Below are positions 56,642-60,882 of a DNA stretch of 64,000 nt, piece after piece. This DNA is from a phage: sequence record PZ386976.1; one strand, written 5' to 3'. The position numbers and the translations under genes were made by a program. The first letter of the stretch is position 1; every line of letters starts with the position of its first letter. The notes below the pieces were generated by a model. It saw only the letters and a list, made by a program, of their open reading frames with translations. It was not told the origin of the DNA and made no database searches.

Positions 56642-58057
56642 ATGAGCGAGTTATTTAAACATGCGCACCTTCATGCAGGTCGAACTGAAAATGGTGCTGT
56701 AAACCATACTTCATCAATGTCTGCTCTGGTAGACTTCTACAAAGCCGCTGGCTCAAGCCGTAGCAATGTAGAAATCTTACCAGACCTGTTCTACAAAGCT
56801 TTGCGTGAGGATGTTGATGTTGCAGTTCGTATTTTACTGCATATGCGAGATGTGCGAGAAGGTATGGGTGAGCGTAAAGCTTTCCGAACTGTTTTACTTC
56901 AAGCAATTGAAGACAAAGTTTTAGAGCCTACACAGGTTCTTCGCATTATGGATAAGATTGCAGAACTTGGTCGTTTTGATGACTTCAAAATCTTCGTAGG
57001 TACTCGTTTTGAGACAGATGCCTTCAAACATTTAGAAGCAGCATTACTAGACCCTGCAACAGCAGGTTTAGCAGCTAAGTGGTTACCACGAGTAAAACCA
57101 CGCCACAAACAGTTTGTAAAACGTTTCTGCAAGTTTGCAAACTTAAGTGAGAAGGAGTATCGCACACTGTTGTCTGCACTATCTGATACGGTTGAGCAAA
57201 AAATCTCTGCTAATGAGTTTGGTAAGATTGACTACAGCAAGATTCCTTCACTCGCTGCTGCACGTTACCAAAAACTCTTTAACCGTAAAGATGGAGAACG
57301 TTACAAAGCTTACATCGAATCACTCTCAAAGGGTGAGGCTAAGATTAACGCTGGTGCTGTTTACCCATACGATGTGATTAAGTCTATCAAGCATGGTAAT
57401 GCAGATGTTGCCAATGAGCAGTGGAAAGCACTACCAAACTGGATGGCAGAAGGTGAGAACATTCTGTGTATGACCGATGTTTCAAGCTCAATGTCTTGGG
57501 TGAATCTTGGTTCAATCACTGCCCTTGATATTGGTGTATCACTTGCCTTGTATGTAGCAGAACGCAATACTGGTTGTTTTAAGAATGAGTTAATGGTTTA
57601 CTCAACAAACCCTCACTTCATCGAACTGAGTGGTGATTTACGAAACCGTCATCGTCAGGTGATGCGTCATGTTGAATATGGCTCAACTAACTTACAAGCA
57701 GCTTTTGACCGTATTCTTGAGATAGGTAAAAGAAACAACTTGACTCAGAAAGATATGCCAAGTAAGCTTATCATCTTCTCCGATATGGAGTTCAATCAGG
57801 TTGATGGTGCTAACGGTCGTACAAACTTTGAAGCAATTCAGAGTAAGTACAAAAAAGCTGGATATGAGATGCCACAACTGGTATTCTGGTACTTAGCAAA
57901 CCGTAATGGCACTTGCGAAGTATCTGTTAAGGATAACGGTGTAGCAATGGTATCTGGTTTCTCTCCAGCCACTTTAAAAGCTCTGCTTGGTGGTGAGAAG
58001 TTTGACCCAATCAGCGTAATGCTCAAAGCAGTAATGATTGACCGTTATATCTGGTAA
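56642..58057 (+). CDS. vWA-domain protein with Ro60-like features (N-terminal helical domain + C-terminal vWA with MIDAS)
   Basis: MIDAS-like DVSSSM followed by LGSI..., G-S-T-N and FSDMEF elements in order expected of Ro60 vWA domain; N-terminal ~300 aa helical; a DUF2828-type assignment cannot be excluded. Confidence 0.5.
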   Translation: MSELFKHAHLHAGRTENGAVNHTSSMSALVDFYKAAGSSRSNVEILPDLFYKALREDVDVAVRILLHMRDVREGMGERKAFRTVLLQAIEDKVLEPTQVLRIMDKIAELGRFDDFKIFVGTRFETDAFKHLEAALLDPATAGLAAKWLPRVKPRHKQFVKRFCKFANLSEKEYRTLLSALSDTVEQKISANEFGKIDYSKIPSLAAARYQKLFNRKDGERYKAYIESLSKGEAKINAGAVYPYDVIKSIKHGNADVANEQWKALPNWMAEGENILCMTDVSSSMSWVNLGSITALDIGVSLALYVAERNTGCFKNELMVYSTNPHFIELSGDLRNRHRQVMRHVEYGSTNLQAAFDRILEIGKRNNLTQKDMPSKLIIFSDMEFNQVDGANGRTNFEAIQSKYKKAGYEMPQLVFWYLANRNGTCEVSVKDNGVAMVSGFSPATLKALLGGEKFDPISVMLKAVMIDRYIW

Positions 58058-58075: not shown

Positions 58076-58104
58076 TTGACAATGTGTTTGATACCCTTTA
58101 ATAT
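58076..58104 (+). promoter_or_regulatory. sigma70-like promoter upstream of tRNA cluster
   Basis: TTGACA, 17 nt, TAATAT. Confidence 0.5.
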
Positions 58105-58166
58105 GTTCTACATAGAAACGAAATGAGAGCTTTTCTAAGATACTGAAAAATATTTTAAAAAAGTTC

Positions 58167-58196
58167 TTGACAACCACTAAAAAATAATGTTAAAGT
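58167..58196 (+). promoter_or_regulatory. second sigma70-like promoter upstream of tRNA cluster
   Basis: TTGACA, 17-18 nt, TAAAGT. Confidence 0.4.
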
Positions 58197-58299: not shown

Positions 58300-58316
58300 A
58301 ATTTAAAGGGGTTACT

Positions 58317-58673
58317 ATGAGATTTTTAAAAGAATGTCCAGTTCATGGTTTAACTGAACATAGCATTCATAAGAATGGTAACGCCGGTAATAGAGTAAAT
58401 TGTCTAAAATGTTGTGCATTAAGGACAAAACTTAGAGAGGATGCCAATAGGGAGAAAGCATACAAGTTTTATGGCGATAGTTGCAAAATTTGTGGCTATA
58501 ATAAATGTAAAAATGCTTTAGAATGGCATCACCTTAACCCAAACGAAAAAGAGAATACACCATCAAAAATTATGGGTGCATCTTGGGAAAAGGTTAAAAA
58601 AGAACTTGATAAATGTGTTTTGCTCTGTGCTAATTGCCACAGAGAGGTTCATAGTGGAATTACAACGGTTTAA
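58317..58673 (+). CDS. HNH homing endonuclease within tRNA cluster
   Basis: Cys-rich zinc-binding elements and HNH motif EWHHLNP...LLCANCHREVH; ORF 58239.. trimmed to MRFLKE because upstream part overlaps tRNA-Pro. Confidence 0.6.
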   Translation: MRFLKECPVHGLTEHSIHKNGNAGNRVNCLKCCALRTKLREDANREKAYKFYGDSCKICGYNKCKNALEWHHLNPNEKENTPSKIMGASWEKVKKELDKCVLLCANCHREVHSGITTV

Positions 58674-58674
58674 T

Positions 58675-58749
58675 GTCGTAGAAGGCAAATGGTTAGCCAC
58701 CTGACCTTCAATCAGTTGCTCGCAGGTTCGAATCCTGTCTACGACACCA
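58675..58749 (+). tRNA. tRNA, anticodon tentative (TTC, Glu?)
   Basis: acceptor gtcgtag/ctacgac, T-arm gcagg-ttcgaat-cctgt, CCA encoded; anticodon loop ccTTCaa has atypical C33. Confidence 0.45.
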
Positions 58750-58753
58750 GTTT

Positions 58754-58832
58754 TGACAGAAGACCAATTACAGCAAACTTAATCTTATTCATCTGAAGGT
58801 AAATCGGACAAAGAAGAGATTTGGTCTGGTCA
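58754..58832 (+). ncRNA. conserved bulged-helix module 1 (outer stem tgac/gtca, 5' AGA bulge, inner stem agaccaa/ttggtct, 3' G bulge)
   Basis: one of four copies with covarying outer stems; encloses AT-rich loop. Confidence 0.35.
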
Positions 58833-58840
58833 TTAAGAAT

Positions 58841-58917
58841 TGCGGGTATAGAGAAAGGGCGTCTCACATGTCTCATTAGCATGGTATCGGCAGGTTCGAC
58901 TCCTGCACCCGCCTCCA
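58841..58917 (+). tRNA. tRNA-Met/Ile2 (anticodon CAT), initiator-like unpaired 1:72
   Basis: acceptor (t)gcgggt/acccgc(c), anticodon loop ctCATta, T-arm gcagg-ttcgact-cctgc, CCA encoded. Confidence 0.5.
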
Positions 58918-58920
58918 ATT

Positions 58921-58986
58921 TTGCAGAAGACCGTATTCAGCAACAAACTACTTTTTGCGGATAAAAGAAAAAACACGGTCTGGCAA
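58921..58986 (+). ncRNA. conserved bulged-helix module 2 (outer ttgc/gcaa, inner agaccgt/acggtct)
   Basis: same architecture as module 1 with compensatory base changes. Confidence 0.35.
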
Positions 58987-58994
58987 TGTATTAA

Positions 58995-59071
58995 GGTTAG
59001 GAAGCACATAAGGTATGTGCGGTCGCCTGTTAAGCGAATGGCACAGGGTTCGAATCCCTGACTAACCGCCA
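58995..59071 (+). tRNA. tRNA-Asn: tRNA-Asn (anticodon GTT)
   Basis: acceptor ggttagg/actaacc, D-arm gcac-ataaggtat-gtgc, anticodon arm gtcgc-ctGTTaa-gcgaa, T-arm caggg-ttcgaat-ccctg, CCA. Confidence 0.7.
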
Positions 59072-59140
59072 AATTTAGGAGAGAAGCGATTGCTCACCGA
59101 TTTGTAAGGTGCAAGTCCTTAGCCTGAATAGAAATTAAAT

Positions 59141-59228
59141 GTGTCGTTATCCCGTAGATGGTAGCGGTGGGGACTGTAAATCCCTTGTCATTGAGACTCG
59201 GTAGGTTCGACTCCTACACGGCACACCA
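59141..59228 (+). tRNA. tRNA-Tyr: tRNA-Tyr (anticodon GTA), long variable arm
   Basis: acceptor gtgtcgt/acggcac, anticodon arm gggga-ctGTAaa-tccct, long variable arm, T-arm gtagg-ttcgact-cctac, CCA. Confidence 0.65.
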
Positions 59229-59233
59229 ATAAA

Positions 59234-59311
59234 GGTTATGTAGTTTAATTTGGTTAAAATACTCCCCTGTCACGGGAGATGATGAGGGTTCAAATCCCTT
59301 CGTAACCGCCA
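59234..59311 (+). tRNA. tRNA-Asp: tRNA-Asp (anticodon GTC)
   Basis: acceptor ggttatg/cgtaacc, anticodon arm ctccc-ctGTCac-gggag, T-arm gaggg-ttcaaat-ccctt, CCA. Confidence 0.7.
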
Positions 59312-59369
59312 ATTTTGAGAGGGCTATTTAGCCCCTCCCTTAAAGGGTTCTTACGAGTATCCTTTAAAG

Positions 59370-59451
59370 GAGCAGAAGACCAAATACAGCAAGAACGTAT
59401 GAAAATTTCAAGCCAATTTAATTTTGAAAAATTTAAAACTTGGTCTGGCTC
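59370..59451 (+). ncRNA. conserved bulged-helix module 3 (outer gagc/gctc, inner agaccaa/ttggtct)
   Basis: same architecture, compensatory outer-stem change. Confidence 0.35.
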
Positions 59452-59458
59452 AACAAAT

Positions 59459-59595
59459 TTACAGAAGACCGTTTACAGCAAAACTTAAACAATCTATTTC
59501 TCGGTAAAGAAAAGGCGAAGGTTCGATTCCTTCACTCGGCAGATGTCGAGTTGGTGTAATGGTAGCACTTAAGATGATAAACAACGGTCTGGTAA
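59459..59595 (+). ncRNA. conserved bulged-helix module 4 enclosing a circularly permuted tRNA-like domain; candidate Y-RNA-like RNA
   Basis: outer ttac/gtaa, inner agaccgt/acggtct; enclosed 59517-59568 has T-arm gaagg-ttcgatt-ccttc, 7-bp hairpin actcggc-agat-gtcgagt (acceptor-like) and D-arm-like gtg-taatggtag-cac in permuted order. Confidence 0.35.
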
Positions 59596-59736
59596 TTATC
59601 TTTGTAGATAAGTTATTAAGCTTACCTGTGAGTATGCGACCACAAAGGGTGAAAGGGTAAATTCTAGATTTAAACCCAAAAAGGCACATCGCTACAGACC
59701 TTAAGCAAGTCTGGGTAGCTTATCTACAAAGATAAT
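59595..59736 (+). ncRNA. long hairpin with perfect 18-bp stem enclosing ~106 nt
   Basis: attatctttgtagataag (59595-59612) is the exact reverse complement of cttatctacaaagataat (59719-59736); no ORF. Confidence 0.3.
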
Positions 59737-59741
59737 TTAAT

Positions 59742-59817
59742 GGAAGTGTAGCAGAATGGTGATGCGGCAGACTTTTAATCTGACAGGCGATGGGTTCGAA
59801 TCCCTCCACTTCTACCA
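59742..59817 (+). tRNA. tRNA-Lys: tRNA-Lys (anticodon TTT)
   Basis: acceptor ggaagtg/cacttct, D-arm gca-gaatggtga-tgc, anticodon loop ctTTTaa, T-loop ttcgaat, CCA. Confidence 0.6.
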
Positions 59818-59900: not shown

Positions 59901-59975
59901 TGTGGGTTAGCATAAATGGTAATGCAAACGGCTGATAACCGTTAGAAGAGGGTTCGATACCCTCACCTACAACCA
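59901..59975 (+). tRNA. tRNA-Ile: tRNA-Ile (anticodon GAT)
   Basis: acceptor tgtgggt/acctaca, D-arm gcat-aaatggta-atgc, anticodon arm aacgg-ctGATaa-ccgtt, T-arm gaggg-ttcgata-ccctc, CCA. Confidence 0.7.
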
Positions 59976-59990
59976 ATTTCAATAAAGTTG

Positions 59991-60019
59991 TTGACATTGA
60001 GATGTGACTACTTTATAGT
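59991..60019 (+). promoter_or_regulatory. sigma70-like promoter inside tRNA cluster
   Basis: TTGACA, 17 nt, TATAGT; followed by ~200 nt ORF-free region before next tRNA. Confidence 0.5.
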
Positions 60020-60222
60020 AACCTTAGTTTTCGTTGCGTAGCGTCTATTTTGCAAATTTAAAATAAATGCAAACGACAATGTTTTTCTGGCAGTAGCTTG
60101 ATAGGCTAAACACCAGTGAGGTCTTCCAATCCCTCATCAAAGAATTTGGCGTACTAGCCCACGGTATGATTAATAAGGTGGGCATCTTTAAGTGCTTTCT
60201 GAGAGAGTCTTTAAAGATTAAT

Positions 60223-60299: not shown

Positions 60300-60441
60300 A
60301 ATAGTTAGCAGATTGCTTAGACGACCTTATCGGGTCTCCGTGTAAGGAGGTGGTCTGTATCTCATGTTTTCCAGAACATGTAAATAATCTGAGAAGGGGC
60401 TTTACAGTGTTGCGAAAATACGGTAAGCTTCGAATTATAGT

Positions 60442-60524
60442 ATGGGACGATGTTAAGACTCTAAGGCATGAGCAACGGCCTCCAAAACCGTTTCAAAGGG
60501 GTTCAACTCCTCCGTCCCATGCCA
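60442..60524 (+). tRNA. tRNA-like gene with oversized D region (possible anticodon CCA, Trp?)
   Basis: acceptor atgggac/gtcccat perfect, T-arm agggg-ttcaact-cctcc, CCA; candidate anticodon loop ctCCAaa; D region ~7 nt too long. Confidence 0.35.
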
Positions 60525-60537
60525 AAGTCTTATTAGG

Positions 60538-60625: not shown

Positions 60626-60882
60626 CCTAATAAGATTTAAAGCCAAGCTTCATTCGGATGTTGCTTTGGTATCCCTCGTGTATTGTCGTACACACTGATA
60701 AAGCACCTAGTAGGTGTCACGGAGAAGAGATAATATCAAGCTCTCCAAAGGTTCTAGTCACCGGATTAAACAAGGCTATGCAAAGACCTGTTTAGGTCTT
60801 TTTAGAGGGCTTCTAAGGTTATTACAGCTTGTTGTGGAACCTTGTTGCTTAGGTTCTTAGAAGTTCTCTAAAAAGATTTAAT

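What the first reader, a model, noticed from the sequence alone, without database searches (positions are those of the whole stretch)
59595..59736. Perfect 18-bp inverted repeat enclosing ~106 nt between module 4 and tRNA-Lys
attatctttgtagataag and its exact reverse complement flank an ORF-free segment. An 18/18 match is unlikely by chance in AT-rich DNA and suggests a stable RNA hairpin or a protein-recognised palindrome.
Basis: seen in the sequence. Interest (0 to 1): 0.5.

Follow-up and report, generated by a model that had tools for sequence, protein, structure and literature searches.

The report
Conserved structured RNA in phage tRNA operon
The inverted repeat is real: it is the closing stem of a conserved structured non-coding RNA of about 145 bases in a Felix O1-type phage's tRNA operon, beside Y-RNA-like genes and a Ro60-like protein gene, and its exact job is unknown.

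Summary
Confirmed. The 18-mer at 59595-59612 and its exact reverse complement at 59719-59736 enclose 106 nt. This is the longest local inverted repeat in the 64-kb window.

The window is a Felixounavirus. As + strand RNA the arms extend to a 24-bp helix (59594-59617/59714-59737; 21 Watson-Crick pairs, 3 U.G). The helix closes three inner hairpins and a candidate pseudoknot.

The element is syntenic, directly 5' of tRNA-Lys(UUU), in about 250 Ounavirinae genomes. It also occurs in two more distant metagenomic relatives. Across 18 distinct sequences 99.5% of cells pair, and 13 of 31 pairs show compensatory double changes. Slid controls give 0-2. No ORF is conserved and no Rfam family matches.

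Context is the main clue. It lies 1.5 kb downstream of a gene whose predicted fold is Ro60. It follows four Y-RNA-like modules, one of them a YrlA-type tRNA mimic. A paralogous long hairpin precedes tRNA-Leu.

Best reading: a stable non-coding RNA processed from the tRNA/Y-like polycistron. RNase P would cut at its 3' side and RNase III probably cuts in the long stem. It possibly serves the Ro60-like system.

My covariance model of the Y-like modules does not recognise it, so it is not filed as a Y RNA. It is an undescribed RNA motif of moderate interest.

The parts
59594..59617 (+).
   Evidence: It pairs with 59714-59737: 21 Watson-Crick pairs plus 3 U.G (U59613, U59616, U59617). Covariation.
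59714..59737 (+). P1 3' arm of the closing stem (holds the reverse-complement 18-mer, 59719-59736)
   Evidence: The helix is 99.8% paired over 18 distinct sequences, and 8 of 23 pairs carry double changes.
59620..59624 (+). J1/2 segment GCUUA, candidate pseudoknot strand
   Evidence: It is complementary to the P4 loop UAAGC (59702-59706). Type B has GCUAA/UUAGC, a compensatory change. L036 has UUGCUUA/UAAGCAA and L037 has UUGCUU/AAGCAA.
59628..59643 (+). P2 hairpin: core GUG/CAC, loop AGUAUGCGAC carrying the conserved GAGUnnGC motif
   Evidence: All 3 core pairs covary (GUG/CAC, GGG/CCC, UCG/CGA). The loop motif is seen in all four lineages.
59655..59677 (+). P3 hairpin GGG...CCC with a loop holding AUUCUAGAUU
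   Evidence: MFE. The AUUCUAGAUU block is invariant between types A and B. The helix itself is not well resolved by covariation.
59692..59719 (+). P4: CAGAC/GUCUG helix (59695-59699/59709-59713) with the invariant 9-nt loop CUUAAGCAA (59700-59708); possible outer CUAC/GUAG extension
   Evidence: G-C to A-U and A-U to U-A double changes. One search shows four helix variants, AGAC, AGUC, AAACC and GUUC, around the same loop.
59738..59741 (+). 4-nt spacer (UAAU) to the 5' end of tRNA-Lys(UUU), 59742-59817
   Evidence: In L036 the stem abuts the tRNA directly. The inference is that RNase P cleavage sets the 3' end of the element.
59463..59592 (+). Context: Y-RNA-like module 4, a YrlA-type tRNA mimic. 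Closing stem AGACCGU/ACGGUCU, then V hairpin, T arm, closed acceptor stem-loop and D arm.
   Evidence: consensus structure with 14 of 31 pairs showing double changes; model R2, 29.9 bits, E 4.7e-5, not in the training set; fold.
58758..59448 (+). Context: three short Y-like modules (58758-58829, 58925-58983, 59374-59448) interleaved with tRNA-Met, Asn, Tyr and Asp
   Evidence: (families D3, D7).
56642..58057 (+). Context: Ro60-like protein gene (DUF2828 + DUF7788/vWA)
   Evidence: Pfam. PHROG 850 'RNA-binding protein'. AlphaFold model with pLDDT 85.9. The Foldseek top 10 are all Ro60/Rsr/TROVE, best E 7e-8 and TM 0.65.
60792..60881 (+). Paralogous long hairpin directly 5' of tRNA-Leu (60883)
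   Evidence: I1; fold. The two hairpins share the stem core UCUUUgUAGA/UCUAcAAAGA and the tail AAAGAU..UUUAAU.
58076..58196 (+). Two sigma-70-like promoters (58076-58104, 58167-58196) that would drive the unit holding the element
   Evidence: These are consensus matches only. The next promoter-like site is at 59991-60019, after tRNA-Ile.

Best explanation
The repeat is the 24-bp closing helix (P1) of a gene for a structured non-coding RNA of about 145 nt. The RNA is read from the + strand as part of the phage's polycistronic tRNA / Y-RNA-like operon. Inside P1 sit three hairpins (P2, P3, P4) and probably a pseudoknot between the junction after P1 and the invariant P4 loop.

Shown: the structure is conserved by compensatory change; the element has a fixed position directly 5' of tRNA-Lys(UUU); it does not code for protein; and it sits next to a Ro60-fold protein gene and four Y-RNA-like modules.

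Inferred: the RNA is cut out of the precursor. RNase P would cut at the tRNA-Lys 5' end, 4 nt downstream. Host RNase III would cut in the long, near-perfect duplex, which is two helical turns or more in every lineage. The result would be a stable small RNA and a separation of the upstream Y-like RNAs from the downstream tRNA run.

More speculative: the released RNA works with the Ro60-like protein as an atypical partner RNA. P4 looks by eye like a miniature of the neighbouring modules' protein-binding scaffold.
For: Stem and sub-helices: 99.5% of cells pair, and 13 of 31 pairs have double changes against 0-2 in slid controls; 0 of 500 shuffles reach the observed covariation score. A relative whose Ro-like protein is 63% identical (L036) keeps a 21-22-bp stem with three double changes, and it scores 113 bits with model R1.

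Strand: U.G/G.U pairs are conserved in the inner third of P1 (columns 26:139 and 29:136, UG in 17 of 18). All 25 tRNAs are on the + strand.

Pseudoknot: one compensatory change plus complementarity kept in the same register in four lineages.

Synteny and spread.

Context: Ro60 fold. The orthologous protein in phage Bas63 is described as Ro60-like and as a counter to the Ppl defence, with Y RNAs only guessed at (10.1101/2024.10.10.617714). A YrlA-type module lies immediately upstream of the element. A true Rfam YrlA hit lies next to the same gene family in a distant phage.

Processing: a paralogous long hairpin sits directly 5' of tRNA-Leu, and similar long stems sit 5' of tRNA-Pro in L043 and L037. 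No promoter or terminator lies between the element and its neighbours. From my own knowledge: RNase III cuts upstream of the first tRNA in the phage T4 tRNA cluster, and it cuts the long stems flanking rRNAs.
Against: There are no expression or processing data. RNase III cleavage and Ro-like binding are both inference.

The covariance model of the Y-like modules (R2) does not hit the element or P4, even with filters off. It also does not hit the L037 ortholog. P1 lacks the AAG...CUG / CAGCAA signature.

Rfam, which includes YrlA, Y_RNA and tRNA, gives nothing.

The minus strand folds almost as well (-44.8 against -48.3 kcal/mol), so energy alone does not fix the strand.

The left half of the interior differs almost completely between types A and B. 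That argues against one fixed interior function.

The Ro-like protein alone protects T7 from Ppl, so the RNAs are not needed for that activity.

FG1m lacks the region and is viable.
Confidence: 0.6

Rival explanations
1. It is a pure processing or insulating element. The long duplex is only an RNase III (or exonuclease-blocking) signal that separates the Y-like RNAs from the tRNA-Lys/Met/Ile run, and the excised piece has no function of its own.
For: The stem is two helical turns or more and near-perfect in every lineage, more than stability needs. A paralogous hairpin and other long stems sit directly 5' of tRNAs that open tightly packed tRNA runs. The left interior is replaced wholesale between types A and B. 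The region is dispensable in FG1m.
Against: P4 and its 9-nt loop are invariant across relatives whose Ro-like protein is only 56-63% identical, while the helix beneath covaries. The pseudoknot complementarity, the GAGUnnGC loop and the AUUCUAGAUU block are also kept. A bare cleavage site would not need them.
Confidence: 0.25
2. It is a DNA-level palindrome: two inverted binding sites for a phage or host DNA-binding protein, or a cruciform or origin-like structure.
For: There is a perfect 19/19 core. An 11-nt core sequence (TCTTTGTAGAT) is shared between the two paralogous hairpins in some genomes. The minus strand folds nearly as well.
Against: The inner third of the stem is held by U.G/G.U wobbles, which are A-C mismatches on the other strand and irrelevant in duplex DNA. 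Within one genome each hairpin matches its own partner arm: the window's hairpin 1 has G/C where hairpin 2 has T/A. That fits intramolecular pairing, not one shared site. The interior helices also covary. The element sits inside an RNA operon.
Confidence: 0.05
3. It is a miniature inverted-repeat mobile element (MITE-like) that landed between tRNA genes.
For: Terminal inverted repeats of 19-22 nt around a short non-coding core.
Against: There is a single copy of this sequence in the window. It sits at the same place in all relatives and diverges in step with them. No target-site duplication is visible in the flanks. No empty site was found; the only genome lacking it has a larger deletion between tRNA genes.
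Confidence: 0.02
4. It encodes a small protein, as some GenBank records annotate ('hypothetical protein').
For: ORFs of 27-76 aa overlap it in the window, and several records annotate CDSs here.
Against: No ORF is shared by types A and B. The longest ORF (minus strand, 76-107 aa) is broken in L012 and L026, and it runs through the covarying tRNA-like module. Indels are not multiples of three.
Confidence: 0.01

Closest known systems
Bacterial and phage Y RNAs (YrlA, Rfam RF02553; the long-hairpin partners YrlB/Yrn2; Yrl1/Yrl2 of Thermus phage phiLo)
   Same: It is encoded close to a Ro60-fold protein gene and on the same strand. Its 5' and 3' ends pair into a stem that closes a structured interior. 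It occurs in a cluster with a tRNA-mimicking Y-like RNA (PMC4201824, PMC12135203).
   Different: No GNCGAAN0-1G/CGAA-type motif, or its phage variant AAG...CUG + CAGCAA, is found in the closing stem. It has no tRNA-like domain. The stem is a perfect 24-bp duplex rather than a bulged helix. Neither Rfam YrlA nor my module model recognises it.
RNase III processing stems: those flanking 16S/23S rRNA, the phage T7 early sites, and the site 5' of the first tRNA of the phage T4 tRNA cluster (own knowledge)
   Same: It is a long, nearly perfect duplex formed by sequences flanking a stable RNA inside a polycistronic stable-RNA operon, placed directly 5' of a tRNA.
   Different: Cleavage is untested here. 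The enclosed RNA is small and has its own conserved pseudoknotted core.
Stable small RNAs of unknown function in phage tRNA clusters (T4 species 1 and 2 RNAs; own knowledge)
   Same: It is a non-tRNA structured RNA co-transcribed with phage tRNAs, and it would be released by the tRNA-processing machinery.
   Different: No sequence relation was tested or seen. The T4 cluster has no Ro60-like gene beside it.
Dictyostelid Class I RNAs (Rfam RF01414). This applies to the neighbouring modules, not to the hairpin itself.
   Same: The modules share the Class I signature: AAG + short covarying stem + (C)UUACAGCAA right after the 5' strand ... stem + CUG(U/G/A) (PMC7919456). The P4 loop CCUUAAGCAA differs from the 11-nt Class I motif CCUUACAGCAA by one missing C.
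   Different: The Rfam scores are far below the gathering threshold (15.7-21.4 against 41.5 bits). Class I RNAs are reported as restricted to Dictyostelia. Whether Dictyostelium has a DUF2828 protein was not testable here.

Membership tests
Y RNA / YrlA-like | Encoded near a Ro60 ortholog, on the same strand | tested here: met
   The element lies 1.5 kb downstream of 56642-58057 (+). That protein's predicted structure matches Ro60/Rsr/TROVE over its full length (top 10 Foldseek hits, E 7e-8 to 2e-6).
Y RNA / YrlA-like | Stem formed by the 5' and 3' ends that carries the Ro-binding motif (GNCGAAN0-1G; in these phages AAG-stem-WUWCAGCAA ... stem-CUG) | tested here: not met
   A terminal stem exists, but model R2, built from 28 such modules, gives no hit on 59594-59737 with filters off and E up to 10. 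It scores the four neighbouring modules at 30-42 bits. The resemblance of P4 to the modules is by eye only.
Y RNA / YrlA-like | tRNA-like domain (T arm, closed acceptor stem-loop, D arm) | tested here: not met
   No tRNA or YrlA match in the element. The adjacent module 4 does have this domain.
Y RNA / YrlA-like | Physical binding to the Ro60-type protein | not testable with these tools
   Needs RIP/CLIP or EMSA.
RNase III substrate | About 20 bp or more of uninterrupted A-form duplex | tested here: met
   24 bp in the window, 23 bp in type B, 21-22 bp in L036.
RNase III substrate | Cleavage dependent on rnc in vivo or in vitro | not testable with these tools
   No transcript-end data are available, and no transcriptome paper was found.
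Any Rfam 15 family | Covariance-model match | tested here: not met
   Nothing at E up to 10 over the element in the window or in the type B form.
MITE-like mobile element | Terminal inverted repeats plus target-site duplication, multiple copies and empty sites | tested here: not met
   Inverted repeats are present, but there is a single copy, no duplication in the flanks, and fixed synteny.
Intrinsic terminator | Short GC-rich stem with a small loop followed by a U run | tested here: not met
   Not reported by the scan. The loop is 96-106 nt and the tail is AAUUUAAU.

The most novel reading that the evidence does not exclude
The hairpin RNA would be a new kind of partner RNA in a widespread, undescribed ribonucleoprotein system. 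The system would consist of DUF2828-type Ro60-like proteins of phages plus small RNAs carrying the signature AAG-stem-UACAGCAA...stem-CUG. In this element the protein-binding scaffold (P4) would be internal, the ends would be closed by an RNase III-length duplex, and a pseudoknot would mask or present the motif. The RNA could then regulate or retarget the Ro-like particle, which counters the Ppl defence. The same signature in Dictyostelid Class I RNAs would make those long-unexplained RNAs relatives of Y RNAs.
Probability: 0.2. Interest if true: 0.85.

Novelty: new variant of a known kind. Interest (0 to 1): 0.6.

Why it matters
Felix O1-type phages are widely used for typing and therapy, yet this conserved RNA gene is either unannotated or mis-annotated as a hypothetical protein. 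It sits in a cluster that turns a published guess ('some tRNA genes of Bas63 may be Y RNAs') into concrete candidate genes. These are four Y-like modules, one a clear tRNA mimic, plus this atypical structured RNA, all next to a Ro60-like protein shown to counter a bacterial defence system.

If the RNA is a partner or regulator of that protein, it offers a tractable phage model of Ro60/Y-RNA biology. If it is only an RNase III-defined spacer RNA, it still explains how a mixed tRNA/ncRNA operon is cut up.

Tried and rejected
1. Rfam. Searches at permissive thresholds over the tRNA region, the element alone and the type B form gave nothing for the element.

2. Permuted tRNA test. I rebuilt module 4 as a linear tRNA and ran ARAGORN. 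No gene was called, probably because of the weak anticodon stem and the 29-nt variable region. The test was uninformative, so I relied on covariation instead.

3. Module test. Model R2 does not recognise the hairpin, P4 or the L037 ortholog. 'It is a Y-like module' is therefore not claimed.

4. Wider search. Model R1 found the hairpin only in the window, L036 and marginally L037 (19.2 bits, E 0.17). It found none in 75 distant loci that encode the Ro-like protein.

5. Strand by energy. The minus strand folds almost as well, so this does not decide the strand.

6. Sequence search of the protein against PDB found nothing; only the fold search showed Ro60.

7. Coding, MITE, terminator and DNA-palindrome readings were considered and rejected; see the rivals.

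8. Literature. I found no transcriptome of a Felixounavirus and nothing useful on DUF2828.

9. Anti-CRISPR RNA, retron msr/msd and small ribozymes were considered from memory only. There is no reverse transcriptase nearby, no repeat-like sequence and no Rfam ribozyme hit.

Full report
**1.

The 18-mer ATTATCTTTGTAGATAAG lies at 59595-59612, and its exact reverse complement at 59719-59736. With up to three mismatches allowed these are the only two matches in the window. Chance expectation is 0.13, and no shuffle out of 100 gave two matches. The segment between the arms is 106 nt.

The repeat finder extends the arms to 22 nt (59594-59615/59716-59737). This is the longest local inverted repeat in the 64-kb window. 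Folded as RNA, 59590-59741 gives -48.3 kcal/mol with z = -5.3. The closing helix is then 24 bp (59594-59617/59714-59737), made of 21 Watson-Crick pairs and three U.G pairs at its inner end.

**2. Where it sits**

The window is a Felix O1-type myovirus (Felixounavirus, Ounavirinae). The element lies inside a + strand array of 25 tRNA genes. It is 4 nt upstream of tRNA-Lys(UUU) (59742) and immediately downstream of the last of four repeated 'modules'.

Promoter-like sites with a perfect TTGACA lie at 58076-58104 and 58167-58196. The next is at 59991-60019. No terminator-like site separates the element from its neighbours. It is therefore most simply part of one polycistronic stable-RNA transcript.

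**3. Conservation**

The same form ('type A') is present at 90% identity or more in 190 phage records. The wider tRNA-Asp to tRNA-Lys interval matches 253 records, 240 of them over at least 80% of its length.

The more divergent genomes carry a 'type B' element at the same place. These are some Felixounavirus (bumzen, BPSELC-1), Suspvirus (SUSP2) and Mooglevirus (Sf14/17/19, Michonne). Type B has the same ends and the same 3' hairpin but a largely different left interior.

Two metagenomic relatives also have it directly 5' of tRNA-Lys(UUU). Their Ro-like proteins are only 63% (L036) and 56% (L037) identical to the window's. L036 scores 113 bits with my model R1. L037 scores a marginal 19 bits (E 0.17). 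Seventy-five more distant loci gave nothing.

**4. The structure is under selection**

On 18 distinct sequences, 99.5% of cells form standard pairs. Thirteen of 31 pairs show changes on both sides, against 0-2 when the 3' partners are slid by one to three columns. No shuffle out of 500 reaches the observed covariation score.

In P1 the double changes include U-A to C-G at three positions, G-C to C-G, and a co-deletion of both partners of one pair. L036 alone adds three double changes relative to the window.

The inner third of P1 holds conserved U.G/G.U pairs, for example two positions that are UG in 17 of 18 sequences. These pair only in the + strand RNA. Energy does not discriminate the strands, since the minus strand gives -44.8 kcal/mol. 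The strand assignment therefore rests on the wobbles and on the operon's orientation.

**5. The interior**

Three inner hairpins are predicted.

- P2 has the core 59628-59630/59641-59643. All three pairs covary, and its loop carries a GAGUnnGC motif present in all four lineages.
- P3 spans 59655-59677 and holds an AUUCUAGAUU block that is invariant between types A and B.
- P4 is 59695-59699/59709-59713. Its helix appears as AGAC/GUCU, AGUC/GACU, AAACC/GGUUU or GUUC/GAAC under an invariant 9-nt loop, CUU(A/U)AGCAA.

The loop is complementary to the junction just after P1, in the same register in every lineage. The pairs are GCUUA/UAAGC (type A), GCUAA/UUAGC (type B, a compensatory change), UUGCUUA/UAAGCAA (L036) and UUGCUU/AAGCAA (L037). 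I treat this pseudoknot as a moderately supported candidate. It rests on one compensatory event plus persistence in otherwise divergent junctions, and in the window it competes with the lower part of the MFE-predicted P2.

**6. What it is not**

- No ORF is shared between the types.
- No Rfam family matches.
- It is single-copy and syntenic, with no target-site duplication, so it is not a MITE.
- It is not terminator-like.
- The one genome found without it, FG1m, has lost the whole tRNA-Tyr to tRNA-Lys block through a deletion between tRNA genes. This shows the element is dispensable in that host, not that it is an insertion.

**7. Context: a Ro60-like gene and Y-RNA-like modules**

The gene at 56642-58057 carries the Pfam domains DUF2828 + DUF7788/vWA and falls in PHROG 850, 'RNA-binding protein'. 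It has no sequence match in PDB. Its AlphaFold model (pLDDT 85.9) matches Ro60, Rsr and phage phiLo Ro60 over its full length; these are the ten best Foldseek hits, with E from 7e-8.

A preprint on Bas63, a Felixounavirus, calls the ortholog gp130. It finds the same Ro60 similarity and shows that gp130 counters the Ppl defence, even alone in T7. The authors only guess that 'some tRNA genes' may be Y RNAs.

The four modules (58758-58829, 58925-58983, 59374-59448, 59463-59592) share a scaffold. It consists of a covarying outer helix, an AGA/G internal loop, an inner helix AGACCnn/nnGGUCU, and WUWCAGCAA right after the 5' strand.

Module 4 encloses a V hairpin, a T arm, an acceptor stem closed by a loop, and a D arm. 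The acceptor stem covaries strongly (ACUCGGC/GUCGAGU; ACACG/CGUGU; ACCCUUC/GAAGGGU). This is the YrlA architecture described by Chen et al. 2014 (PMC4201824). Rfam's YrlA model does not reach it. The model does hit a tRNA-like domain inside the same AAG...CUGA scaffold, 70 nt upstream of the Ro-like gene, in a distant phage (39.2 bits, E 2.6e-7).

A model built from 28 short modules finds 52 matches at E of 0.05 or less in 75 distant loci. All 52 are on the gene's strand, and nearly all lie within about 0.8 kb of the gene (regex scan). The stem statistics are circular, because the training modules were picked for complementarity. The strand and position bias is not circular.

**8. How the finding relates to the modules**

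By eye, P4 with its possible CUAC/GUAG extension looks like a collapsed module. Compare CUAC-AGAC-CUUAAGCAA-GUCU-GG-GUAG with UUAC-AGA-AGACCGU-UUACAGCAA...ACGGUCU-G-GUAA. In L037 the 5' flank of the orthologous element resembles the 5' flanks of its neighbouring modules.

The module model, however, does not score the element, P4 or the L037 ortholog. I therefore do not file it as a Y-like module.

What is solid is a paralog. A second long hairpin (60792-60881) lies directly 5' of tRNA-Leu. It shares the stem core UCUUUgUAGA/UCUAcAAAGA and the tail AAAGAU..UUUAAU. In L036 the 11-nt core is identical to that of the finding. In the window, hairpin 2 carries a matched G-to-U / C-to-A change relative to hairpin 1. 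Each hairpin matches its own partner arm, not the other hairpin. That fits intramolecular RNA pairing and argues against a shared DNA-binding site.

Long stems directly 5' of tRNA-Pro also occur in L043 and L037.

**9. Mechanism**

Most likely the element is a stable RNA processed from the operon. RNase P cleavage at tRNA-Lys would set its 3' side; in L036 the stem abuts the tRNA directly.

In every lineage the duplex is at least two helical turns long and nearly perfect. That is more than stability requires, and it is what RNase III recognises. I know of precedents in rRNA operons and in the T4 tRNA cluster (own knowledge, not tested here).

The conserved P4 loop, the pseudoknot and the loop motifs suggest that the excised RNA has a function of its own. 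Given the neighbourhood, that function is probably tied to the Ro60-like particle.

My rough probabilities:

- Structured + strand RNA element: about 0.9.
- RNase III involvement: about 0.5.
- Functional link to the Ro-like protein: about 0.3.

**10. Verdict**

The finding is real and is not explained by anything in Rfam or in the annotations. It is a new variant within known kinds (phage tRNA-operon small RNAs, and Y-RNA-associated RNAs) rather than a new category. Interest is moderate on its own.

The neighbouring modules are the more far-reaching lead. They are widely associated with DUF2828 Ro-like genes, and their signature matches that of Dictyostelid Class I RNAs: AAG start, CUG(U) end, and the motif CCUUACAGCAA next to the 5' stem strand (PMC7919456). 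The Rfam RF01414 hits are weak, at 15.7-21.4 bits.

Noticed in passing
window 58758-58829, 58925-58983, 59374-59448, 59463-59592 (+); loci L043-L117: Four repeated modules share the scaffold AAG-stem-WUWCAGCAA...stem-CUG. A model built from 28 such modules finds 52 matches in 75 distant phage loci that encode the DUF2828 Ro60-like protein. All 52 are on the gene's strand, and most lie within about 0.8 kb of the gene. This looks like an undescribed RNA motif tied to that protein family.
   Followed up: partly
window 58929-58982; L005 468-587; L062 5708-5755: The modules give weak Rfam hits to Dictyostelium Class I RNA (RF01414; 21.4, 17.6 and 15.7 bits against a gathering score of 41.5). They share its published signature: AAG start, CUG(U) end, short covarying stem, and CCUUACAGCAA next to the 5' strand. 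Class I RNAs are reported as unique to Dictyostelia (PMC7919456). Whether Dictyostelium has a DUF2828 protein could not be checked.
   Followed up: partly
window 59463-59592 (+): Module 4 is a circularly 'closed' tRNA mimic of YrlA type: T arm GAAGGUUCGAUUCCUUC, acceptor stem closed by a loop, and D arm. Some GenBank records (REP5, ASO1B) annotate part of this stretch as an intron-containing tRNA-Thr(GGT) of about 130 nt. That annotation is probably a misreading.
   Followed up: partly
window 60792-60881 (+): A second long hairpin (26-nt arms at 85%, about 30 bp when folded) lies directly 5' of tRNA-Leu. It is paralogous to the finding in stem core and 3' tail, and it is conserved with compensatory changes in relatives. 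Its interior keeps UUGUUGCU, which is complementary to the AGCAA(CAA) of the module motif.
   Followed up: partly
L044 5951-5988, L048 5949-5988, L049 1761-1797, L051 5943-5988, L054 2856-2892, L065 5947-5987, L068 5900-5939: In several distant phages a 35-45-nt mini-module ends about 14 nt before the start codon of the Ro60-like gene. It could be an autoregulatory leader that mimics the protein's RNA partner.
   Followed up: no
L062 5865-5927 (+): A true Rfam YrlA (RF02553) match (39.2 bits, E 2.6e-7, below the gathering score of 69) lies just upstream of a DUF2828 gene in a distant viral contig. It follows two tandem short modules.
   Followed up: partly
window 58300-58674 (+): An ORF of about 118-144 aa with a borderline HNH-endonuclease match (21.3 bits against a cut-off of 21.4) fills the gap between tRNA-Pro and the next tRNA. 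In REP5 and ASO1B those two tRNAs are only 7 nt apart. It is probably a free-standing homing endonuclease inserted in the array.
   Followed up: no
window 58675-58746 (+): A tRNA is found by Rfam (55.4 bits) but not by ARAGORN. Relatives annotate tRNA-Glu(TTC) at this position.
   Followed up: no
window 59976-60222 and 60300-60537 (+): These are non-tRNA gaps after a strong promoter-like site (TTGACA-N17-TATAGT, 59991-60019). They give sub-threshold Rfam hits to permuted tmRNA (59918-60101, 32.5 bits against 47), to tmRNA (60033-60222, 14 bits) and to a tRNA-Sec-like model (60444-60518, 23 bits). They may be further non-coding RNAs or decayed tRNAs.
   Followed up: no
window 60525-60537 / 60626-60638: A 13-nt inverted repeat (92%) brackets tRNA-Ser(UGA), so that leader and trailer could pair.
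   Followed up: no
L118 (Salmonella phage FG1m) 2455-2607: This Felixounavirus lacks tRNA-Tyr, tRNA-Asp, modules 3 and 4, the hairpin and tRNA-Lys. tRNA-Asn is followed directly by tRNA-Met, which is consistent with a deletion by recombination between tRNA genes.
   Followed up: partly
L003 (bumzen), L008 (BPSELC-1): These two Felixounavirus genomes combine a type A-like base of the stem with a type B interior. This suggests recombination within the element.
   Followed up: no
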